A DNA stretch of 64,000 bases. It comes from Sulfolobales archaeon. GTDB taxonomy: Archaea > Thermoproteota > Thermoprotei_A > Sulfolobales > NBVN01. Shown piece after piece: positions 15,837-63,676 of this stretch. The stretch spans positions 6,325 through 70,324 of the forward strand of contig JAWBQY010000005.1 in NCBI GenBank assembly GCA_038844925.1, read 5' to 3'. The first letter of the stretch is position 1. Every line of letters starts with the position of its first letter. The notes beneath the pieces were generated by a model. That model made no database searches, was not told the origin of the DNA, and saw only the letters and a program-made list of their open reading frames with translations. The translations under genes and the position numbers were made by a program.

Positions 15837-16952
15837 TTAGTAACGGTCGCTTAATAACCACTCATTACCTACGAATACATTCCTCAACCCTAAATCACGC
15901 ATAATCCTTATAGATTCACGCATATGCGCCTTACTAGTAGTTGGTAAATCAGTTAACATGAAGTCAGGACGGAAGGCTAGGAGGACAACCGGTATCTCAG
16001 TATTTAACGATGCCAGAAACTCCGCAATACTTCTAACCTCTATAAGGTCTACGTAACCTGGAACGAGTAGGATGCTGACCACCAATAACGGTGGTTCCTC
16101 CCTCAGGCTCATGTAGGTAGAAACTAATTTAATGTTTTCCTTAACCCTTTCAACTGCATCAACACCTGTTAGGGCGTGGTATATCTTAGGTGACCAAGCC
16201 TTAAGGTCTATTTTTACAATACCTCCTGACTCAAGTGAAACCTTAGTAACCTCCTCCATGATCTTCGGGTTTAAAGTACCGTTAGTCTCCCAACATATTC
16301 TTAAAATCCTACTACCGCCAACTTTCTTGAGGACTTCCCTAGAAGTCTTCAACGCATGAATTACGTTTGGTGTTGGATCTCCCCCAAAGTAGCAGATGCA
16401 GGTAACCCTACTATTTAAAGCTGCTTTAACTAATTCATCCACACTCATCCTATGCATGAAGAGTAGCGACTCCCTCCTACCCCTCCAGTTCTGACAGTAG
16501 AGGCAATTCAAAGAACATGTTGCATAGAATACTGCAAGATTGTAATACCCTGCCTCACCATCAGGTCTTAACGAGTATTGAGGAAAGCCCCTACCTGTGA
16601 CTGCTGGACATACAGGAAATGCCACACAGTTAGTTGGATGTACATCGTAGTACCAAGACCCGTACGACACGTCGTAAGAACCCAACACGTGTTTGAGACC
16701 TCCTTCATATAGGTAGTTACCACAGTAACCCAATACATCACTACTTAAGTAGCAGTTATTGATGCAGAGACCGCATCTAAATTCCCCAGCCTCGGCTTTA
16801 GTAGGTGACAATCCAAGCACATTCCGAGCCGTTCTATGAGCTCTGACAACACTCTCAGGTAATTGCGGAGCTCTACGTAAGCATTCAGAGCATAAGCCTA
16901 TAACATCACTTACTGTTACAGACTCCCTACCACATAAACCACATCTTCCTAT
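15837..16952 (-). CDS. radical SAM protein (PflA-like activase family) with N-terminal zinc ribbon; start set at non-canonical ATA (ORF track starts at GTG 16820)
   Basis: The CSLNCLYCQNW (CxxxCxxC) motif is present. The frame is open upstream to TAG at 16968-16970 and encodes CGLCG...CSECL. GGAGGTGAT lies immediately upstream. Confidence 0.75.
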   Translation of the reverse strand: MGRCGLCGRESVTVSDVIGLCSECLRRAPQLPESVVRAHRTARNVLGLSPTKAEAGEFRCGLCINNCYLSSDVLGYCGNYLYEGGLKHVLGSYDVSYGSWYYDVHPTNCVAFPVCPAVTGRGFPQYSLRPDGEAGYYNLAVFYATCSLNCLYCQNWRGRRESLLFMHRMSVDELVKAALNSRVTCICYFGGDPTPNVIHALKTSREVLKKVGGSRILRICWETNGTLNPKIMEEVTKVSLESGGIVKIDLKAWSPKIYHALTGVDAVERVKENIKLVSTYMSLREEPPLLVVSILLVPGYVDLIEVRSIAEFLASLNTEIPVVLLAFRPDFMLTDLPTTSKAHMRESIRIMRDLGLRNVFVGNEWLLSDRY

Positions 16953-30670: not shown

Positions 30671-31429
30671 TTAGGGCCCTATGGATATACCACCATCAAT
30701 ATTTATGACTTGACCGGTTATGTAGTTAGAATCGTCGGATGCTAGGAATAGCACTAACTTAGCTACTTCTTCAGGTTTACCCAACCTACCTAAAGGTATC
30801 TTCTGGATAAATCCTCTCTTAACTTCTTCAGGCCATGGTGCAGTCATAGGAGTTTCTATAACTCCTGGTGCGACAGCATTGACTAATATGTTGTACTTAG
30901 CTAATCTTCTAGCTAAGGCCTTAGTTAAACATATGATGCCTGCTTTAGAAACCGCGTAATCTATTCCGGCAAATATACCGCCTACCTGGCCAGCAAGTGA
31001 GGCCATATTAATTATTTTACCGAAGCCCTGCTCCTTCATATACTTAACGACCTCCTTAGAGAACATTACAGCGGAAGTTAAGTTAACCTTCATAACCCTA
31101 TCCCAGCGTTCCTCAGTTATCTCATCAAGAGATGCTGATGAGAATATACCGGCATTATTCACTAAGATGTCTATCCTACCATACTTACGTATTACCTCAT
31201 CCACAGCCTTCCGTACATCCTCAACCCTAGATACGTCAGCTTTTATCGGTGTTACTTCACCATACTTACTTAACTCTTCGTACGTCTTGGCTAACTCGTC
31301 CTCAGCAATATCTATGATGACTACTTTAGCACCTTCCTTAATAAATTCTGTAGCGATGGCCTTACCTATACCTCGAGCACCACCTGTTATAATGGCGATA
31401 CGACCCTGGAGTTTCAAGGTAAACACCAC
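30671..31429 (-). CDS. SDR family oxidoreductase (FabG-like)
   Basis: ITGGARGIGKAIA, NNAG and YAVSKAG (YxxxK) are present. I trimmed the start to GTG 31429 because a TTTTATTAG element lies ~30 nt upstream; the longer ORF-track start at 31510 adds a non-homologous leader. Confidence 0.85.
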   Translation of the reverse strand: MVFTLKLQGRIAIITGGARGIGKAIATEFIKEGAKVVIIDIAEDELAKTYEELSKYGEVTPIKADVSRVEDVRKAVDEVIRKYGRIDILVNNAGIFSSASLDEITEERWDRVMKVNLTSAVMFSKEVVKYMKEQGFGKIINMASLAGQVGGIFAGIDYAVSKAGIICLTKALARRLAKYNILVNAVAPGVIETPMTAPWPEEVKRGFIQKIPLGRLGKPEEVAKLVLFLASDDSNYITGQVINIDGGISIGP

Positions 31430-31523
31430 GAAGATCGTCGTATTAGAACTAATAAAACTTCTAAGAGGTAAATTCAGAGCTGTTTGTAAAGATTTTAAAT
31501 GCCACACCAACTTGGTTCTAGGG

Positions 31524-32501
31524 ATGTGTTTGAGTTTAAGCTCGTTGAAAAAAGAATTACTCCTTGATATGTATTATAAGATGGTCTTAGTGAGAAGGTT
31601 TGAAGAGAAGGTAGTAGAGCTTTATAGGGCTGGTGAGATTCCTGGAATAGCTCATGGGTATATAGGTGAGGAAGCTGTTGCAGTAGGTGTGTGTTCAGCC
31701 CTTAGAAGGGATGACTACATATTAAGTACTCATAGAGGGCACGGTCATAGCTTAGCTAAAGGCATAGACCCTAAGTATTTAATGGCTGAACTCTACGGTA
31801 AGAAAACAGGTGTTTGTAAGGGTATAGGAGGTTCTATGCATAGCACAGAGCCGGATGTTGGTGTGATATTTTCCTCAGCAATCGTTGGTGGTAACATACC
31901 TATAGCAGTAGGTGTTGCACTAGCGTTTAAGATGCGTAAGGAGGATAGGGTTGTAGTTTCATTCTTCGGCGATGGTGCTACTAATACCGGTGCATTTCAC
32001 GAAGCACTTAACCTAGCATCTATTTGGAAGTTACCTATAATCTTCGTATGTGAGAATAACTTCTACGCAATATCAACGCATGTCAGCAAGTCTGTAGCAG
32101 CTAAGGAAATAGTTGATAGAGCCATAGCTTATAACATGCCGGGTGTTGTAGTTGACGGCAATGATGTATTAGCAGTATATGACGTTACTTTAAAAGCTGT
32201 TGAGAGGGCTAGGAGGGGGGAAGGTCCCACATTAATTGAGGCTAGAACCTATAGATGGCTCGACCATGGAATGTACTACTTAGGTAAGTACAGACCTGAT
32301 GAGGAGGTCATGATGTGGAAGCAGAGATGTCCTATAAAGCTTCTAAAGGAGAGGTTGTTAAAGGAGGGAATAGCTACTGAGTTAGAGTTAAGTAAGTTAG
32401 AGGAGAGGGTAGCACTTGAGATTGATGAGGCGGTCAGGTTTGCTAGGGAGAGTGAGGAACCCGATTTAGACTTCGTCAAGCAATTCGTATATGTGAGGTG
32501 A
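31524..32501 (+). CDS. 2-oxoacid dehydrogenase E1 component alpha subunit (TPP-dependent)
   Basis: MVLVRRFEEKV, GEEAVAVG, HRGHGH, the GDGATNTG TPP motif and CENNFYAIST are present. I set the start at ATG 31524, since the ORF-track extension runs antisense through the SDR gene. Confidence 0.9.
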   Translation: MCLSLSSLKKELLLDMYYKMVLVRRFEEKVVELYRAGEIPGIAHGYIGEEAVAVGVCSALRRDDYILSTHRGHGHSLAKGIDPKYLMAELYGKKTGVCKGIGGSMHSTEPDVGVIFSSAIVGGNIPIAVGVALAFKMRKEDRVVVSFFGDGATNTGAFHEALNLASIWKLPIIFVCENNFYAISTHVSKSVAAKEIVDRAIAYNMPGVVVDGNDVLAVYDVTLKAVERARRGEGPTLIEARTYRWLDHGMYYLGKYRPDEEVMMWKQRCPIKLLKERLLKEGIATELELSKLEERVALEIDEAVRFARESEEPDLDFVKQFVYVR

Positions 32502-32508
32502 GGGTTGG

Positions 32509-33498
32509 TTGGCTGTTCGCGAAATAACATATGCTGAGGCGATAAGAGAAGCATTAAGAGAGGAGATGTTAAGAGATGAGAGAGTCTTCCTAATGGGTGA
32601 GGATATAGGGTTAATCGGCGGTGTTTTTAAAGTTACCCAAGGGCTTTATGAGGAATTCGGACCTGAGAGAGTGAGGGACACACCCATATCGGAGACAGCT
32701 ATAGTGGGGGCTGCTATAGGGGCTGCTATAGCTGGAATGAGGCCTATCGCAGAGATAATGTATATGGACTTCCTAATGTGTGCTGGGGATCAAGTAATTA
32801 ATCACTTACCTAAGATTAGGTTTATGAGTGGGGGAAAGCTTAAAGTACCAGCCGTTATTAGAACTCAGTACGGACTCTACAGATATGCAGCAGCCCAACA
32901 CTCGCAGTTCTACCCAGCATTTCTGATGAACATCCCTGGAGTATATGTTGAAGTACCTTCAACGCCCTACGATGCTAAGGGGTTACTTAAATCAGCCATA
33001 AGGGATGAAAATCCAGACATATTCATAGAGTGTGCCGCTCTATACAGGTTGAGAGGCCCTGTACCGGATTACGAGTACACCATACCTTTAGGTCAGGCAG
33101 ACATTAAGAGGGAGGGTAAGGACGTCACAGTATTCGCTATTTCATACATGGTTCACGTAGCACTCTCAGCAGCTAAGAAATTAGAGAGTGAGGGGATAAG
33201 TGTTGAGGTTGTAGACCCCAGAACCCTTAACCCCTTTGATAAGAAGACATTAGTAGAGTCTATTAAGAAGACCGGACGTTTAGTAGTGATTGAGGCAGAC
33301 CATAAGACAGCGGGTGTTGGTGCTGAAGTATTAGCAATAGCTATGGAGGAGGCTTACGACTATCTTAAGGCACCAGCAGTTAGGTTAGCTGCTGAGGATA
33401 TACCACCACCATTCTCACCTAAGGCGTACAACGCGTCTCTACCTAATGAAGAGAAGTTAATAAATACTATAAAGAGACTGCTTAAACATAGCAGGTAA
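32509..33498 (+). CDS. 2-oxoacid dehydrogenase E1 component beta subunit
   Basis: ITYAEAIREALREEM, GEDIG, RVRDTPISE and the C-terminal transketolase-like domain (VVDPRTLNPFD) are present. Confidence 0.9.
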   Translation: MAVREITYAEAIREALREEMLRDERVFLMGEDIGLIGGVFKVTQGLYEEFGPERVRDTPISETAIVGAAIGAAIAGMRPIAEIMYMDFLMCAGDQVINHLPKIRFMSGGKLKVPAVIRTQYGLYRYAAAQHSQFYPAFLMNIPGVYVEVPSTPYDAKGLLKSAIRDENPDIFIECAALYRLRGPVPDYEYTIPLGQADIKREGKDVTVFAISYMVHVALSAAKKLESEGISVEVVDPRTLNPFDKKTLVESIKKTGRLVVIEADHKTAGVGAEVLAIAMEEAYDYLKAPAVRLAAEDIPPPFSPKAYNASLPNEEKLINTIKRLLKHSR

Positions 33499-33523
33499 TC
33501 ACTATAAAAAGTAGATCCCTATA

Positions 33524-33772
33524 ATGGTAGTGGGTGTGAACTTGGTTGAAGTAATAATGCCTAGAATGGACCCTGAAATGAGGGAGGGGAGGATAGTTGA
33601 ATGGTTGAAGAATGAGGGGGATTTTGTTAGGGAAGGAGAAGTAATTGCGAGAATTGAAGCTGAGAAAGTAGTCTTTGACTTAGAAGCACCTAAGTCAGGA
33701 GTGATTAAGAAATTACTTGCGAATGTAGGTGATGTCATCCCAGTCGGGAAGGCTATAGCTATAATTGAATAG
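33524..33772 (+). CDS. free-standing lipoyl-domain protein (E2 N-terminal domain only)
   Basis: MPRMDPEMREGRIVEWLKNEGDFVREGEVIARIEAEKVVFDLEAPKSGVI is a lipoyl-attachment fold with the lysine in EAEKV. The ORF stops right after the domain. Confidence 0.8.
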   Translation: MVVGVNLVEVIMPRMDPEMREGRIVEWLKNEGDFVREGEVIARIEAEKVVFDLEAPKSGVIKKLLANVGDVIPVGKAIAIIE

Positions 33773-33794
33773 GTAGGTTATGAGGAGTTAATTA

Positions 33795-34508
33795 ATGAAA
33801 GTAATTAAGACTTTATCGCTTAGATCGTGGCCTAGGGCAACGATAGCAGAGAGACTCTCAAAAAGTTATAGGGAGGGGGTCCACGTAACACTTCACGGCG
33901 AGTACGACGTAGGCCGCTTAAAAGAGTTGAAGGAGAGGTTAGAGCCCGTGATTATGGAGAAGTATAACACACGTCTAACTTATACCTCATTACTGGTAAA
34001 AATAGTTTCACACGTCATTAACAATCATCAAATATTTAACTCAATCATAGATGGTGATGAGGTTAAGGTTATAGAGGATGTAAACATATGCGTAGCTGTT
34101 CAGAGCAGTAAGTTAGGCTTAGTTACACCGGTAATTAAGAACGCCAACCTAAAGAAGTTAGGTGAGATCGCATTACAGCTTAACGAATTGGTAAGTAGGG
34201 CTCGAGAGGGGAAGTTAAGCATTAAGGACCTCATGGAGGGTACTTTCACAATATCTAATGTAGGTGTCTTAGGTTCTGTAGACGCGTTCACTCAGATAAT
34301 CAACCCGCCACAGGTAGCTATCCTCGGAGTAGGTAGGATAGTAGATAAACCAGTAGTTATTAATAATGAGATAAGGATCAGACCTACATGTACTTTCAGC
34401 CTCACATTCGACCATAGAGTAATTGACGGCTACCATGGTGCGGAATTTCTAGCTACTTTAAAAGAATTTCTTGAAAAACCTGAGATGGTGATTAAAGAAG
34501 ACGTCTAA
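33795..34508 (+). CDS. 2-oxoacid dehydrogenase E2 acyltransferase catalytic domain (no lipoyl or subunit-binding domain)
   Basis: FTISNVGVLG and the catalytic DHRVIDG are present. The N-terminus starts directly at the catalytic-core region, and an in-frame TAA sits 2 codons upstream of the ATG. Confidence 0.85.
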   Translation: MKVIKTLSLRSWPRATIAERLSKSYREGVHVTLHGEYDVGRLKELKERLEPVIMEKYNTRLTYTSLLVKIVSHVINNHQIFNSIIDGDEVKVIEDVNICVAVQSSKLGLVTPVIKNANLKKLGEIALQLNELVSRAREGKLSIKDLMEGTFTISNVGVLGSVDAFTQIINPPQVAILGVGRIVDKPVVINNEIRIRPTCTFSLTFDHRVIDGYHGAEFLATLKEFLEKPEMVIKEDV

Positions 34509-34546
34509 GTTGGAGAGTGCCTTAGAATTATTTAGAGGGGGTACCT

Positions 34547-35899
34547 ATTAAGGTAGTTGTAATTGGTTCAGGACCTGCCGGCTACGTAGCAGCTATAAGG
34601 GCTGCGCAATTAGGTGGTGAGGTTACTGTCGTAGAGAAAGACTCTATCGGCGGTGTTTGCGTTAATAGGGGTTGCATACCGACTAAAGCTCTTTCCTCTA
34701 TAACGTCTACTATAAAGAAGTTAAGACAGCTTAAGAAGAAGGGCATATTAAATGAGGATTTAAGCATTAATGTTGAGAAGGTCTTCGCTAACAGAGACGT
34801 CATTGTGGGTAGGTTGACAAAAGGTGTTGAGTACTTGCTGAGAAAGTCTAACGTACAGTTAGTACGTGGAGAGGCAAGAATAGTTAGCAAGGAATTCGTC
34901 GATGTTGGGGGAGTTAAGCTCCGATATGATAAACTAATAATAGCTACTGGGTCCCTACCTGCGCAGCTGAAGATACCTGGGATAGAGTACGTTAATGCCG
35001 TAAGCGGTGACAACTTTATCACCATGAATGAAGTCCCTCAGAGACTTCTAATAGTTGGAGGTGGTCCTATCGGAGTGGAGTTAGCACAGATCTACCGTAC
35101 CTTAGGAAGTGATGTAAGTGTCGTTGAAATCATGCCACACATACTGCCGAACTTAGATAGTGAGGTAGCACTAACATTGCAGAAAATACTCTCTAGGGAG
35201 GGGGTCCGAATATACACTAATACTTCTGTTCATAGATTTGAGAAGACTTCAGATGGTGTTGAGGCATATCTCTCCAATAACGTTAGGCTAGCCGCTGATA
35301 CGGTAGTCCTAGCAGTCGGTAGGAGGCCGAACACTGTTAATTTAGGGGTTGAGGTACTAGGAGTTGAGTTGGGTAAGAGGGGGGAAATACTGACCAATGA
35401 TTGTATGATGACTAACGTACCCAACGTATACGCAGCTGGCGATGTCGTTGGTAGAAACTTCCTAGCATATACAGCTTTTGAGGAGGGGGTGGTAGCTGCT
35501 GAGAATGCTTTAGGACTTAATTCGAAGGTTAACTACTCAGCAATCCCGATAGCGATATTTACAGATCCAGAAGTTGCGAGCGTTGGGATGAGTGAGGATG
35601 AGGCTAGGAAATTGGGTGACGTACTCGTAGGTAAGTTCCCACTAGTAGCTAATGGTAGAGCGCTTACTTTAGACTCCTATGAGGGCTTCATCAAAATCGT
35701 AGCTAATAAGAAGGGGAAGCTCCTAGGAATGCACATGGTAGGACCTGAAGCCTCAGAACTAATCCACATAGCATCATTAGTTTTAAGTAGGAACGGTGAT
35801 GTTGCAGAACTTTTAAACACCCTATACGTACATCCAACAATTTCTGAGGGGATTAAGGAAGCCGCACTAGCTATACTTAAAAAACCTATACACATCTAA
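34547..35899 (+). CDS. lpdA: dihydrolipoamide dehydrogenase (E3); start set at in-frame ATT (ORF track starts at GTG 34805)
   Basis: The same frame upstream of 34805 encodes KVVVIGSGPAGYVAAIRAAQLG and the redox disulfide GGVCVNRGCIPTK. The in-frame TAG is at 34523-34525. The C-terminus carries the HPTISE motif. Confidence 0.85.
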   Translation: MKVVVIGSGPAGYVAAIRAAQLGGEVTVVEKDSIGGVCVNRGCIPTKALSSITSTIKKLRQLKKKGILNEDLSINVEKVFANRDVIVGRLTKGVEYLLRKSNVQLVRGEARIVSKEFVDVGGVKLRYDKLIIATGSLPAQLKIPGIEYVNAVSGDNFITMNEVPQRLLIVGGGPIGVELAQIYRTLGSDVSVVEIMPHILPNLDSEVALTLQKILSREGVRIYTNTSVHRFEKTSDGVEAYLSNNVRLAADTVVLAVGRRPNTVNLGVEVLGVELGKRGEILTNDCMMTNVPNVYAAGDVVGRNFLAYTAFEEGVVAAENALGLNSKVNYSAIPIAIFTDPEVASVGMSEDEARKLGDVLVGKFPLVANGRALTLDSYEGFIKIVANKKGKLLGMHMVGPEASELIHIASLVLSRNGDVAELLNTLYVHPTISEGIKEAALAILKKPIHI

Positions 35900-35936
35900 C
35901 TTTTTAACATCCCTACGAAGAATATCATGGTAAGCA

Positions 35937-37280
35937 ATGAGGGTGAAAGCACTTATACTTAATAAGTTTGACCTAACTATGAGGGAGGGCATCCACCTAG
36001 ATGTAGAGTTATGTAAGTTATTTGAAGCTGAGTGCTACCCTATAATCACCGGAATTGTTAGGGAGGGTAATACCCTACTTAACGTAAAGGTTGAGGAGGT
36101 AATCAAGCAGCTTAAGACGTTAGACCTAAGTAAACTCAACACCCTTAAACTCAATGCTAGTATCGATCCTTCAATCATTAACTACATCTACGAACATGGA
36201 AGTACGTTAGAGGTTAAGGTCCTCACCCTAAATGGACGACCATCTGAATACTTAACTAAAGAATATTTAAGACAATTAAGTGTTAATAAGTTAGTCAATA
36301 TGTCAGATATCTTATTCATCACGTCTACCGAAGCTCAACAACTATCTAAGATGTTAAGTATTCCATTAGAATCTCTTCACGACCTCATTAAATCTTTATC
36401 AGATATGTTAAACATTAAAGGTGTTGGACTATTAAACCATGAGATAGGACATAACCTCTTCGTAAATATAATCTACCATGATGAAACATACCTCGAGCTT
36501 AGGAAGCAGGTAGAACTTCCTAAGGACTTAGTAGCTACTTATACTGCCTTAGGCTTGGCTCGTAAGATGAGGTTGGAGGACGTGGTTAAGAATGCTTTAG
36601 AATTTGCTGAGAGGTCGGTAGAGTATGGATTAAGGTGTGGGGAACATATCATGCCGGATGTGTATTGGTATTCAACAATGCTTGCTGAGAAGTTTAAAGT
36701 TCTTAGTGAGCTAGCCAGTACAGTTAACTTAATAGAGGAGAACTCCCATTTAATAGTAGACTTAATACCTGAGGTTCAGATGAATTTAGCTTACTCACTA
36801 CCTAAGCGGTTTGTAAGAGGTTTAAGTGATATTGCCGCCATCCCGGGTAGGATCGTTAGAGTAGGTAACATGGTTAAGGCTGCCTCATCGCCTGAGTTCG
36901 GCGCTTCTAAACACTTAGCTAGGGCTTTAATGAAGGTCATGGAGTACAACCCTAAGATCAGGTCGATAGCTAATATAAGGTTTGACGACTTAATACTTAA
37001 AGCTATTGAGAGGTTAGGGTATACGGTCTCATTCTACGATAGGGCCTTGGAGCCCCAGGAGGTTAAGAGGGTTGAAGGAGCTACCATTCCCTGGGGCGTT
37101 GAAGAAGCTATTAAGAGGGTTGGTTACGTACCAGATGTAATCTACCATAAAGGTGATTACGGTAAGGAGGCTATGATAACAGTCCTTGGTGAAACTCCTG
37201 CTGAAGTAGTTAGTAAGCTATTAAGCATTGGGAGAACTTTAAAGGAGTTGAAGTCATGTTTAAATAGTGAGTCAGCTTAG
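35937..37280 (+). CDS. ThiDN-like protein: divergent ribokinase-fold (ThiD-like) N-domain fused to ThiN thiamine-phosphate synthase domain
   Basis: The C-terminal half matches the ThiN pattern (IPEVQMNLAYSLP...AIPGRIVRVG...FGASKHLA...). The N-terminal half has ThiD-like topology, but the GSDxxGGAG and GTGC motifs are not recognisable. Confidence 0.6.
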   Translation: MRVKALILNKFDLTMREGIHLDVELCKLFEAECYPIITGIVREGNTLLNVKVEEVIKQLKTLDLSKLNTLKLNASIDPSIINYIYEHGSTLEVKVLTLNGRPSEYLTKEYLRQLSVNKLVNMSDILFITSTEAQQLSKMLSIPLESLHDLIKSLSDMLNIKGVGLLNHEIGHNLFVNIIYHDETYLELRKQVELPKDLVATYTALGLARKMRLEDVVKNALEFAERSVEYGLRCGEHIMPDVYWYSTMLAEKFKVLSELASTVNLIEENSHLIVDLIPEVQMNLAYSLPKRFVRGLSDIAAIPGRIVRVGNMVKAASSPEFGASKHLARALMKVMEYNPKIRSIANIRFDDLILKAIERLGYTVSFYDRALEPQEVKRVEGATIPWGVEEAIKRVGYVPDVIYHKGDYGKEAMITVLGETPAEVVSKLLSIGRTLKELKSCLNSESA

Positions 37281-37313
37281 GGTATAAAGCTTAGATTTTA
37301 AAGGTATATCTTA

Positions 37314-38606
37314 ATGAGTTCCTCTAAAAAGTACTGCCTAGTCATACCATATGCAGAGGATAACAAATATAGCATTCATGTGTTAATAGCTGCTATTGAG
37401 GCCAACAAGATAGATATAGATATATACTTAACTAGGATGGGTGACTTCAATAAGGTGGTTAATTTCCTCTTAACAAGTTATGATAAGGTTATCGTAGGCA
37501 TTTCACTTATGACCACACAGCTACCTGAGATGTTACCATTTCTAGAAAGTTTAAAGGAGTTGAAGGACTCCCTTAATGGGAGATTGCTCTTAGTTGGAGG
37601 AGGACCCCATGTAAGTGGGGACCCCTTAGGTTCTCTGAAGCGTTTAGGATTTGACTTCGTATTTATTGGCGAGGCTGAGAAATCATTCACAGAATTTCTT
37701 AGTAAGTTATTAGAAGGCCTTGATTTCAAGGACGTAAAGGGCATAGCGTATATAGAGGATGATAAAGTATTAATTAAGTATGATGATCATGTGGTAAATC
37801 TTAATGAGTTTCCTCCAATATCACTTAAGTATGGGCTATTCAACCCTATAGAAGTGAGTAGGGGGTGTCCTTATGCATGTAAGTACTGCCAGGTGAGCTA
37901 TATCTTTGGCAGGTTAATGAGGCATAGATCATTGGATATAGTATTAAGGTATTGTAGAGAGTTAATTAAGAGGGGTATCAACGACTTAAGGTTTATCTCA
38001 CCTAATATACTCGCATATGGGGGTAGCGGTACTAAGGTGAACTTCAACGCATTAGCAGAGTTTGTTGAAGGTATTAAAAAATTGAAGGATTTAGGGGGTA
38101 GGCCATACCTAGGTTCATTCCCTAGTGAGATGAGACCTGACTTCATAGAGCCGGATACCATTAAATTAATTAAAGACGTAGTAAGTAATAGGAAGGTATC
38201 TATAGGTGTTCAATCAGGGTCTGATAGAGTTCTTAAGGAGTTAAATAGGGGTCATACAGTTGAAGACGCGTTAAATGCTATTAATTTATTAAGGAGTTAT
38301 GGCTTCGTAGTTGATGCTGACTTAATAGTAGGGTTGCCTAATGAAGACTTAGCAGATTCTCTTAAAACGTTAGAACTAATTCAAAAACTCATCGATTTAG
38401 GGGGTGTTAGGATACACCTCCACCACTATATACCACTACCCGGAACACCGCTGGCTAAATACGGGTTAAGACCTATACCCGAAGTGGTTAGAAGTAAGTT
38501 AATGAGGCTTTTAGGGAAGGGAGTTGTTTTCGGTAATTGGCTTAGGCAGGAGGTATTAGCATATAAGATTCAGGAGTTAAGGATGGGTGGGGTGATACTA
38601 AATTAA
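37314..38606 (+). CDS. B12-binding domain / radical SAM domain protein
   Basis: The N-terminal Rossmann-like B12-binding region contains VGGGPHVSGDP. The radical SAM motif is RGCPYACKYCQV (CxxxCxxC). Confidence 0.85.
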   Translation: MSSSKKYCLVIPYAEDNKYSIHVLIAAIEANKIDIDIYLTRMGDFNKVVNFLLTSYDKVIVGISLMTTQLPEMLPFLESLKELKDSLNGRLLLVGGGPHVSGDPLGSLKRLGFDFVFIGEAEKSFTEFLSKLLEGLDFKDVKGIAYIEDDKVLIKYDDHVVNLNEFPPISLKYGLFNPIEVSRGCPYACKYCQVSYIFGRLMRHRSLDIVLRYCRELIKRGINDLRFISPNILAYGGSGTKVNFNALAEFVEGIKKLKDLGGRPYLGSFPSEMRPDFIEPDTIKLIKDVVSNRKVSIGVQSGSDRVLKELNRGHTVEDALNAINLLRSYGFVVDADLIVGLPNEDLADSLKTLELIQKLIDLGGVRIHLHHYIPLPGTPLAKYGLRPIPEVVRSKLMRLLGKGVVFGNWLRQEVLAYKIQELRMGGVILN

Positions 38607-62521: not shown

Positions 62522-63676
62522 CTAACTACCGTATACTTTAGACCTTCCTAGAAGTGCCTTACGTATTAAATTCTTAACTATTTCCTCATTAACTGGTGAG
62601 GGGTTATTCCCTATATTCCTCTTATACCCCATAGTATCACTGGCTATGGCGTCTAACTCCTCTTCCTTAAAACCTACTTCAGCAATGCTGTCAGGTATTC
62701 CGACAGCGTCTGTAAGCCTACATAACATCTTTATGAATCCCTCAATAGATGATGTGTTAGTAACTCTTAGGAGTATGTTTAACTTCCCTTCATCTATGTA
62801 TTTAAGATTATATTCAAGTATGAAGGGCATTAATAACGCGTTAGCTAGTCCGTGCTGTACGTTATGATGCGTTGTTAAGTAGTAGCCCGCGCCATGTATT
62901 AAGGTGGTGCCTGCATCGTTTATAGCCATACCCCCTAGAGTAGCTGCTATGTGTAACTTACCCTTAGCCTCTTCATCTCCTTCATAAGCTTTAGGTAGAT
63001 ACCTCATTATGTAGTCTATCGCTATTAGAGCTACACCATCTGATATGGGGGTTGACGCTTTCGACGTATATGCCTCAATAGCATGTGATAATGCGTCTAG
63101 AGATGTCCAAGCAAGTAATTTCTTAGGTAATTTCTTAAGGACTTCTGGGTCTACTATAGCCACCTTAGGTAGGACTGAGGGTCCAGCCATGGTCATCTTC
63201 TTCTTAGTGCTTAAGTCAGTTATTATGGCATATCTAGTGACTTCAGCACCGGTACCGCATGTCGTAGGTATTGCTATGACTGGAATCGTCGGACCCTCAA
63301 CTATTTTAGGGAAGAAGTAGTCGCTGGCCTTACCGCCTAAGGATGTTAGAACTGAGATCGCCTTCCCAGCATCCATAGCGCTACCACCGCCAAACGCCAC
63401 TATCGCATCAACACCTTCCTCCTTAGAGATCTTAGCCCCCTTCTCACATGTCTCAATACTCGGGTTTTCCTCAACCTCATTGAATAGTATGTAGTTAATA
63501 CCTACTGAGTTTAGAGATTTTGAAATGATGTCTAAGTACCCAGTAACTTCTAGTAAGTTACCAGTAGTTACTAAGAGTACCTTAGAACCACCTAACTTCT
63601 TAACTTCCTCTCCAACCCTACTTACCGTACCCTTCCCAAATACTACCTTAGTATGTAGGTAGTGTGTGAACTCTAT
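62522..63676 (-). CDS. iron-containing alcohol dehydrogenase (second paralogue); start set at in-frame ATA (ORF track starts at GTG 63400)
   Basis: The same frame upstream of 63400 encodes EFTHYLHTKVVFGKGTVSRVGEEVKKLGGSKVLLVTT...AFGGGSAMDAGK. The in-frame TGA is at 63683-63685. The resulting 385 codons match family length. Confidence 0.8.
   Translation of the reverse strand: MEFTHYLHTKVVFGKGTVSRVGEEVKKLGGSKVLLVTTGNLLEVTGYLDIISKSLNSVGINYILFNEVEENPSIETCEKGAKISKEEGVDAIVAFGGGSAMDAGKAISVLTSLGGKASDYFFPKIVEGPTIPVIAIPTTCGTGAEVTRYAIITDLSTKKKMTMAGPSVLPKVAIVDPEVLKKLPKKLLAWTSLDALSHAIEAYTSKASTPISDGVALIAIDYIMRYLPKAYEGDEEAKGKLHIAATLGGMAINDAGTTLIHGAGYYLTTHHNVQHGLANALLMPFILEYNLKYIDEGKLNILLRVTNTSSIEGFIKMLCRLTDAVGIPDSIAEVGFKEEELDAIASDTMGYKRNIGNNPSPVNEEIVKNLIRKALLGRSKVYGS

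What the first reader, a model, noticed from the sequence alone, without database searches (positions are those of the whole stretch)
34523..34807. E3 (lpd) FAD-binding N-terminus is encoded upstream of any canonical start codon: probable AUU initiation
The first ATG/GTG/TTG in the lpd frame is GTG at 34805. The same frame is open from just after TAG 34523-34525. It encodes an essential and highly conserved N-terminus: KVVVIGSGPAGYVAAIRAAQLGGEVTVVEKDSIGGVCVNRGCIPTK, containing the GxGxxG FAD motif and the redox-active disulfide. None of the 93 codons between that stop and 34805 is ATG, GTG or TTG. ATT at 34547 would give the family-typical M-K-V-V-V-I-G start and is preceded by the purine-rich SD-like GAGGGGGT. 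Two other genes in this window show the same pattern (16950 and 63676), so non-canonical AUA/AUU/AUC initiation may be used recurrently in this organism.
Basis: partly seen in the sequence, partly recalled or inferred. Interest (0 to 1): 0.6.

Follow-up and report, generated by a model that had tools for sequence, protein, structure and literature searches.

The report
lpd gene starting at ATT codon
An intact dihydrolipoyl dehydrogenase gene of an uncultured hot-spring archaeon has ATT where three related species have the ATG start codon. It is most likely translated from that rare start, as are two other genes nearby, so gene finders that allow only ATG, GTG or TTG cut off its essential first 86 residues.

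Summary
The lpd frame is open from 34526. It has no ATG/GTG/TTG before GTG 34805. From ATT 34547 it encodes a complete E3, with GSGPAG, the CVNRGC disulfide and HPTISE.

ATT is not an error. It is present in five further assemblies, in contigs of three more DNA runs, and in a strain about 0.4% divergent. Orthologues at 92, 80 and 78% identity have ATG at exactly this codon. A 73% orthologue has ATA after GAGGTGGT.

The start-less N-terminus is under the same purifying selection as the rest of the gene (dN/dS 0.11 versus 0.08). I found no nonsynonymous change there on this lineage.

- The radical-SAM gene starts at ATA, conserved in three species (ATG in a fourth).
- The Fe-ADH gene has ATA here, ACG in two species and ATG in one.

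All sit 3-5 nt behind a GAGGTGAT-like Shine-Dalgarno site. That makes about 3 of 57 genes in the window.

The best explanation is Shine-Dalgarno-directed initiation at near-cognate codons. No direct translation data exist.

The parts
34523..34525 (+). In-frame TAG that bounds the lpd frame upstream
34535..34542 (+). Shine-Dalgarno-like GAGGGGGT, 4 nt upstream of ATT. Compared with the 92% relative (GAGGG--T) it carries two extra G.
   Evidence: The window's canonical-start genes use a (T)GAGGTGAT-like SD at similar spacing.
34547..34549 (+). ATT, the proposed initiation codon of lpd. It is homologous to ATG in L081, L082 and L084.
34547..35899 (+). lpd / E3 dihydrolipoyl dehydrogenase coding sequence (450 aa plus stop)
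34565..34582 (+). GSGPAG (GxGxxG FAD-binding motif), upstream of the first canonical start
34658..34675 (+). CVNRGC redox-active disulfide (Cys38, Cys43), upstream of the first canonical start
   Evidence: invariant columns C38 and C43
34805..34807 (+). First in-frame canonical start (GTG). It would give a 364-aa protein lacking the FAD motif and the disulfide, as some gene callers predict (P0007).
34510..34551 (+). 13-codon out-of-frame mini-ORF, TTG to TAA. Its stop overlaps the ATT (T-ATT-AA). The TAA was created by the same G-to-T change and is not conserved in relatives.
   Evidence: direct reading
31167..32501 (+). E1 alpha (E1_dh) of the same operon. The true start is probably downstream of 31167.
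32509..33498 (+). E1 beta
33524..33772 (+). Stand-alone lipoyl-domain protein (first half of a split E2)
33795..34508 (+). Stand-alone E2 catalytic (acyltransferase) domain protein. Its stop, TAA 34506-08, lies 38 nt before the ATT.
16950..16952 (-). ATA start of the radical-SAM gene (CDS 15837-16952), 3 nt behind GGAGGTGAT (16964-16956)
63674..63676 (-). ATA start of the Fe-ADH gene (CDS 62522-63676), 6 nt behind GGTGA (63687-63683)

Best explanation
lpd is a functional gene whose translation begins at AUU 34547. The gene sits inside a polycistronic 2-oxoacid dehydrogenase operon. Base-pairing of the upstream GAGGGGGU with the 3' end of 16S rRNA places the small subunit so that AUU lies in the P site. 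Initiator Met-tRNA then pairs with it despite a third-position mismatch, and the protein starts Met-Lys-Val-Val-Val-Ile-Gly. Initiation is probably weaker than at AUG, which may simply lower E3 dosage relative to E1 and E2. The same mechanism serves at least two other genes in the window (AUA) and orthologues in sister species (AUA, ACG). Shown: the sequence facts, the homology of the codon to ATG, its fixation, the selective constraint and the recurrence. Inferred: that AUU is decoded by initiator tRNA, the role of the Shine-Dalgarno site and the dosage effect.
For: - ATT sits exactly where three orthologues (92, 80 and 78% aa identity) have ATG.
- A 73% orthologue has ATA behind TGAGGTGGT, and the full-length 454-aa call for that species (P0010, held by NCBI and JGI) starts its Met at the homologous codon.
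- ATT is present in the window, L086-L089 and runs X1, X5 and X9, from several studies (2017-2024), with no variant at 34549.
- dN/dS for codons 2-86 is 0.106, against 0.084 for the rest.
- Lineage-specific changes are 1 synonymous and 0 nonsynonymous in the N-terminus, and 20 and 7 in the rest.
- Polymorphisms among ATT-carrying strains are 4 synonymous and 1 nonsynonymous.
- The protein from ATT is a complete E3.
- The operon is intact and is transcribed in a 97.7%-identical strain.
- The radical-SAM ATA is conserved in three species at 71-80% aa identity.
- The Fe-ADH start codon is ATA, ACG, ACG or ATG across four species, with the SD and the downstream codons conserved.
- SD spacing of 3-5 nt equals that of the canonical-start genes.
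Against: - There is no peptide or ribosome-profiling evidence.
- The metatranscriptome contigs break just at 34538-34565, so the start codon is not seen in RNA.
- In vitro, Sulfolobus solfataricus aIF1 rejects an AUU mRNA (Hasenohrl et al. 2009, as summarised in PMC4705826; also PMC6237735).
- Reviews list only AUG, GUG and UUG as archaeal starts (PMC7531240).
- The ATG-to-ATT change is young. It is absent from the 92% relative, so lack of decay is weak evidence on its own.
- The SD here (GAGGGGGT) is an imperfect match to the consensus, and the organism's 16S 3' end was not available.
Confidence: 0.75

Rival explanations
1. Recent loss of function. The ATG-to-ATT mutation silenced lpd in this species, and the reading frame is intact only because too little time has passed for it to decay.
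For: The change is specific to this species; the 92% relative still has ATG. Only 1 polarisable substitution falls in the N-terminal 86 codons, so the selection test has little power there. aIF1 of S. solfataricus discriminates against AUU in vitro.
Against: ATT is fixed across strains and studies. Polymorphism within ATT-carrying strains is mostly synonymous, 4 to 1. The rest of the operon is intact. The SD is retained and even extended. The same kind of codon is conserved for long periods in the radical-SAM gene, and occurs at lpd itself in another species. These points show that such codons are tolerated as starts in this clade.
Confidence: 0.13
2. Translation enters the lpd frame from the small out-of-frame ORF TTG 34510. 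Two routes are possible: a +1 slip on the GGGGG run (34537-34541), or termination at TAA 34549-51 followed by re-initiation on the overlapping AUU.
For: Direct reading shows three things. TTG 34510 lies 1 nt after the E2 stop. Its frame ends at TAA, which overlaps ATT. The G5 run is present only in this species.
Against: No SD precedes TTG 34510. The mini-ORF and the G5 run are absent from L100, L095, L097 and the Fe-ADH loci, which show the same start-less pattern, so this would be a special explanation for one case. The re-initiation version still needs AUU as the start.
Confidence: 0.05
3. Sequencing or assembly error: the true base at 34549 is G.
For: All four runs carry one extra A after 33512 relative to the window, so the window assembly is not identical to the reads everywhere.
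Against: Five further assemblies and contigs from three DNA runs from different studies all read T at 34549.
Confidence: 0.01
4. Only the truncated 364-aa product from GTG 34805 is made, and it has some function.
For: Several gene callers predict it (P0007, on 8 contigs).
Against: It would lack the FAD-binding GxGxxG motif and the redox-active disulfide. The upstream 86 codons are under purifying selection. No SD precedes 34805.
Confidence: 0.02

Closest known systems
AUU start codons of bacterial infC (IF3) and pcnB; the ATT/ATC/ATA/CTG alternative starts of NCBI translation table 11
   Same: An essential, conserved gene begins at a codon one base away from AUG, behind a Shine-Dalgarno site. 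Gene callers restricted to ATG/GTG/TTG truncate it. Only callers that admit the table-11 alternatives can call it: a 450-aa call starting at this ATT exists on NCBI MAG contig L086.
   Different: This is an archaeal (aIF1/aIF2) system, not the bacterial IF3 system. No autoregulatory logic is evident. The codon is not conserved for lpd (relatives have ATG), unlike infC. Sister species also use ACG, which is not in table 11.
Near-cognate (non-AUG) initiation in eukaryotes (CUG, ACG, AUU and others), policed by eIF1
   Same: Archaeal aIF1 and aIF2 are homologues of eIF1 and eIF2. The set of codons seen here (AUU, AUA, ACG) consists of single-mismatch near-cognates.
   Different: Positioning is by SD pairing inside an operon, not by scanning. 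These are the main starts of housekeeping enzymes, not uORFs or alternative isoforms.
Sulfolobus solfataricus in-vitro initiation (Hasenohrl et al. 2009, cited in PMC4705826 and PMC6237735)
   Same: A related crenarchaeal lineage and an SD-led mRNA; AUU versus AUG was tested directly.
   Different: There aIF1 excluded the AUU mRNA from the 30S complex. The genomic evidence here implies that AUU, AUA and ACG are tolerated in vivo in this related clade.
Dihydrolipoyl dehydrogenase E3 of 2-oxoacid dehydrogenase complexes (e.g. Thermus thermophilus 2eq6)
   Same: Full-length alignment, all catalytic motifs present, and an operon with E1 alpha, E1 beta and E2.
   Different: E2 is split into separate lipoyl and catalytic proteins, and the operon continues into ThiN and a B12-binding radical-SAM gene.

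Membership tests
Dihydrolipoyl dehydrogenase (E3, class I pyridine-nucleotide disulfide oxidoreductase) | Pyr_redox_2 plus Pyr_redox_dim domain architecture over the full length | tested here: met
   E 3e-76 and 1.7e-31; 2eq6, residues 3-450 aligned, E 1e-105
Dihydrolipoyl dehydrogenase (E3, class I pyridine-nucleotide disulfide oxidoreductase) | N-terminal GxGxxG FAD motif and redox-active CxxxxC | tested here: met
   GSGPAG at 34565-34582 and CVNRGC at 34658-34675; invariant in 16 homologues
Dihydrolipoyl dehydrogenase (E3, class I pyridine-nucleotide disulfide oxidoreductase) | C-terminal His-Glu catalytic dyad (HPxxSE) | tested here: met
   HPTISE; H429, P430, S433 and E434 invariant
Dihydrolipoyl dehydrogenase (E3, class I pyridine-nucleotide disulfide oxidoreductase) | Genomic association with E1 and E2 components | tested here: met
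   synteny conserved in L081, L082, L084 and L100
Genes with a near-cognate (non-ATG/GTG/TTG) initiation codon | No canonical in-frame start upstream of indispensable residues, with the frame closed by a stop just upstream | tested here: met
Genes with a near-cognate (non-ATG/GTG/TTG) initiation codon | The candidate codon is positionally homologous to the canonical start of orthologues | tested here: met
   ATG in L081, L082/83 and L084/85; ATA in L100
Genes with a near-cognate (non-ATG/GTG/TTG) initiation codon | Ribosome-binding site at functional spacing | tested here: met
   GAGGGGGT plus 4 nt. Canonical genes of the window have a GAGGTGAT-like SD at an equivalent spacing of 4-6 nt. The 16S 3' end of this organism was not available, so the pairing itself is inferred.
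Genes with a near-cognate (non-ATG/GTG/TTG) initiation codon | The base call is real (independent sequence data) | tested here: met
Genes with a near-cognate (non-ATG/GTG/TTG) initiation codon | Protein N-terminus or initiating ribosome mapped to the codon | not testable with these tools
   The organism is uncultured. Only metagenome and metatranscriptome contigs are available, and the RNA contigs do not span the codon.
Pseudogene by start-codon loss | Relaxed selective constraint or further disabling mutations | tested here: not met
   dN/dS 0.106 (N-terminus) and 0.084 (rest). Lineage-specific changes are 21 synonymous and 7 nonsynonymous. There are no frameshifts or stops. Power is limited because the change is recent.
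Pseudogene by start-codon loss | Variant polymorphic or confined to one assembly | tested here: not met
   Fixed in all same-species assemblies and runs examined

The most novel reading that the evidence does not exclude
This hot-spring lineage of the order Sulfolobales (in the GTDB sense, near Zestosphaera) may run translation initiation with relaxed start-codon stringency. Any single-mismatch codon (AUU, AUA, ACG) placed 3-5 nt behind a strong GAGGUGAU-type Shine-Dalgarno site would then serve as a regular start for several percent of genes. Such codons would interconvert freely with AUG over evolutionary time and could be used to set protein dosage. That would imply a difference in aIF1, aIF2 or initiator tRNA from the Sulfolobus solfataricus system, which rejects AUU in vitro. 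It would also make ACG a natural archaeal start codon.
Probability: 0.4. Interest if true: 0.7.

Novelty: new member of a known kind. Interest (0 to 1): 0.45.

Why it matters
Practical consequence: gene callers limited to ATG/GTG/TTG, and ACG-blind table 11, truncate these proteins. Public databases hold a 364-aa lpd lacking its FAD site, Fe-ADH versions of 349 and 374 aa, and radical-SAM versions of 283-327 aa. This distorts metabolic reconstruction of uncultured archaea.

Biological consequence: reviews of archaeal initiation list only AUG, GUG and UUG, and the one crenarchaeal in-vitro test rejected AUU. Comparative evidence that AUU, AUA and ACG are maintained as starts gives a concrete set of natural test cases for start-codon fidelity in the aIF1/aIF2 system, which is the evolutionary sister of the eukaryotic one. 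In one gene the near-cognate codon is kept across species that are only 71% identical.

Tried and rejected
I therefore made no genome-wide count of start-less genes, did not search for a second lpd copy, and could not retrieve the 16S 3' end, aIF1 or the initiator tRNA.
- Sequencing error is rejected.
- I looked in the metatranscriptome X11 for the start codon in RNA. The contigs of the close strain stop at 34537 and resume at 34566. The piece that spans the site belongs to the 78% species, which has ATG, so this was uninformative.
- An SD-anchored scan of all codons was too noisy to give an enrichment statistic. I used it only to derive the SD consensus and spacing.
- Other ORFs with 15 or more start-less leading codons were inspected and have ordinary canonical starts or are shadow ORFs.
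- Rfam found no RNA gene in the window.
They found no paper describing natural AUU, AUA or ACG starts in Crenarchaeota.
- GTG 34517 with read-through of TAG 34523 was considered and dismissed: there is no SD and it is not conserved.

Full report
**What is at the locus**

The window (about 41% G+C) carries a 2-oxoacid dehydrogenase operon. It contains:
- E1 alpha (ORF ending at 32501)
- E1 beta (32509-33498)
- an 82-aa lipoyl-domain protein (33524-33772)
- a 237-aa E2 catalytic-domain protein (33795-34508)
- lpd/E3
- ThiN, then a B12-binding radical-SAM gene

Read directly, the lpd frame is closed by TAG 34523-25. It then runs AAT TAT TTA GAG GGG GTA CCT ATT AAG GTA GTT GTA ATT GGT TCA GGA CCT GCC GGC... 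The stop-to-stop ORF is 34526..35899, and the first ATG/GTG/TTG in frame is GTG 34805.

The 86 codons between ATT 34547 and that GTG encode GSGPAG (34565-82) and the redox-active CVNRGC (34658-75). The translation from ATT matches Pyr_redox_2 from profile position 2. It aligns over residues 3-450 with solved E3 structures (2eq6, E 1e-105).

ATT is the only codon between the stop and Lys-2 that is one base away from ATG. GAGGGGGT lies 4 nt upstream of it.

**Is the T real?**

A 450-aa and a 364-aa version of this protein both exist in the public protein collection (P0002 and P0007). Gene callers therefore already disagree.

Four further same-species loci all read ...GAGGGGGTACCT ATT AAG...:
- NCBI MAG contig L086, where the called gene is the 450-aa protein with Met at ATT
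- three Logan assemblies from other runs (L087-L089)

Twenty public runs hold words of this stretch. Contigs of DNA runs X1, X5 and X9 span 34549 with no difference. X9 is a strain with 11 differences in 2.6 kb. Sequencing error is excluded.

**What do relatives have?**

| Orthologue | aa identity | Codon at the homologous position | Upstream SD-like sequence |
|---|---|---|---|
| L081 | 92% | ATG | GAGGGT |
| L082/L083 | 80% | ATG | AGGTGA |
| L084/L085 | 78% | ATG | TGAGGGAT |
| L100 (JGI metagenome) | 73% | ATA | TGAGGTGGT, then ATT ATA AAT AAA CCT AGA GTT |

Sources are for the ATG species and for L100. In L100 the frame is closed just upstream, and ATA is the codon where the full-length 454-aa call of that species (P0010) has its Met. 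Some callers truncate that protein to 385 aa.

At lpd itself, then, a near-cognate start has arisen in two separate lineages.

**Is the gene decaying?**

- Window versus L081: dN/dS is 0.106 for codons 2-86 and 0.084 for codons 87-450. Versus L082 the values are 0.096 and 0.086.
- Polarised with two outgroups, changes on the window's own branch are 1 synonymous and 0 nonsynonymous in the N-terminal part, and 20 and 7 in the rest.
- Among ATT-carrying strains the polymorphisms are 4 synonymous and 1 nonsynonymous. A 97.7%-identical strain seen in a metatranscriptome differs by 24 synonymous and 7 nonsynonymous changes.
- The other operon genes have the same lengths as in relatives.
- The operon is transcribed in that close strain, but its RNA contigs break at 34538-34565, so the start codon is not seen in RNA.

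There is no sign of relaxation. The ATG-to-ATT change is young, however, so this test alone is weak.

**The two other genes**

A scan of every stop-to-stop ORF in the window found only two other real genes with long conserved N-termini lacking a canonical start.

*Radical-SAM gene* (minus strand; family N-terminus 'MGxCxxCG'). The homologous codon is ATA 16952-16950, 3 nt behind GGAGGTGAT. The same ATA behind GGTGG or GGTGA is present in:
- L095 (80% aa identity)
- L097-L099 (71% identity, three NCBI MAGs, called with Met at ATA)

L096 (80%) has ATG. An ATA kept at a start position across species this divergent is hard to explain unless it functions as a start.

*Fe-ADH gene* (minus strand). 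ATA 63676-74 lies 6 nt behind GGTGA. The orthologous codon is:
- ACG in L090/L091 (89%)
- ACG in L092 (84%; the same MAG contig as L082)
- ATG in L093/L094 (82%)

The SD and the following EFTHYLHTK are conserved throughout. In L090 ACG is the only single-mismatch codon left in the open frame.

Counting about 57 plausible genes, roughly 5% of genes in this window start at a near-cognate codon.

**Mechanism**

Canonical-start genes in the window carry a (T)GAGGTGAT-type SD whose 3' end lies about 4-6 nt from the start. The near-cognate sites have the same motif at 3-5 nt.

The most economical reading is ordinary SD-directed initiation, with initiator Met-tRNA tolerating one mismatch: third position for AUU and AUA, second position for ACG.

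Relative to the 92% relative, the window's leader has two extra G that lengthen the SD-like stretch (GAGGG--T becomes GAGGGGGT). This could be compensatory. That is an inference, because the 16S 3' end could not be retrieved. A weaker start may also tune E3 dosage; this too is inference.

Established knowledge cuts the other way:
- Reviews list only AUG, GUG and UUG for Archaea (PMC7531240).
- In vitro, S. solfataricus aIF1 excludes an AUU mRNA (PMC4705826 and PMC6237735).

My searches found no paper reporting natural AUU, AUA or ACG starts in Crenarchaeota.

**Rivals**

- Recent silencing of lpd remains possible (about 0.13).
- A 13-codon out-of-frame mini-ORF (TTG 34510 to TAA 34549-51, overlapping the ATT) and a G5 run offer a frameshift or re-initiation route. 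Neither feature exists at the other start-less loci, so this is unparsimonious (about 0.05).
- Translation of only the 364-aa product would give a protein without FAD site or disulfide (about 0.02).

**Comparison and novelty**

This works like the rare non-canonical starts of bacteria (infC and pcnB AUU; the table-11 alternatives), and one public gene call already places the start at this ATT. It is therefore a new member of a known kind. It is not a new mechanism.

What is less ordinary is the recurrence. There are three genes in 64 kb. AUG, AUA, AUU and ACG interchange at the same start positions across sister species. ACG, which is not a table-11 start, is among them.

Earlier notes of this scan report similar patterns in Bathyarchaeia, Micrarchaeota, Asgard and other Thermoproteota. 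These are unverified AI notes and not independent evidence. They do suggest that the phenomenon is broader in uncultured Archaea than the literature reflects.

**Limits**

No genome-wide frequency, second-copy check, 16S, aIF1 or tRNAi analysis was possible. No direct translation evidence exists for this uncultured organism.

Noticed in passing
window 33524-33772 and 33795-34508; also L081, L082, L084, L087, L100: E2 of this 2-oxoacid dehydrogenase operon is split into two proteins in different frames: a stand-alone lipoyl-domain protein (68-82 aa) and a stand-alone catalytic-domain protein (about 237 aa). They are separated by about 22 nt and each has its own start. No peripheral subunit-binding domain was detected by Pfam. 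The split is conserved in all relatives examined, so it is not a frameshift error.
   Followed up: partly
L090/L091 and L092 (orthologues of window 62522-63676, minus strand): Fe-ADH orthologues in two sister species have ACG at the start position, behind a GGTGA or GGTGG SD. ACG is not a table-11 start. The NCBI call for one of these species (P0133, 374 aa) appears to start at an internal ATC instead, and another call (P0136, 349 aa) at a later codon.
   Followed up: partly
window 33512: All four runs laid (X11, X1, X5, X9) carry one extra A after 33512, in an A-run in the E1 beta to lipoyl-protein spacer. The window assembly therefore seems to lack one base of this homopolymer. The site is intergenic and has no effect on frames.
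   Followed up: no
window 34510-34551: The G-to-T change that turned ATG into ATT also created a TAA (34549-51). That stop closes a 13-codon TTG-initiated mini-ORF beginning 1 nt after the E2 stop, and it overlaps the ATT (T-ATT-AA). The arrangement is not conserved in relatives and is probably incidental.
   Followed up: partly
window 35937-38606: lpd is followed in the same orientation by a ThiN-domain protein (447 aa) and a B12-binding radical-SAM protein (430 aa). The order is conserved in L081-L087 and L100, which suggests that cofactor-related genes are co-transcribed with the dehydrogenase complex.
   Followed up: no
window 31167-32501: The first canonical start of the E1 alpha frame gives 444 aa, but the E1_dh domain begins only at residue 137. 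The E1 alpha calls in relatives' loci are shorter (at least 318-352 aa, all cut by the locus edge). The real start is therefore probably well downstream of 31167.
   Followed up: no
run X11 (metatranscriptome) on window 33400-36000: RNA contigs from two organisms cover this operon: a strain 97.7% identical to the window, and the 78% species with ATG (L084-like). The complex is therefore expressed in situ in at least two members of the clade.
   Followed up: partly
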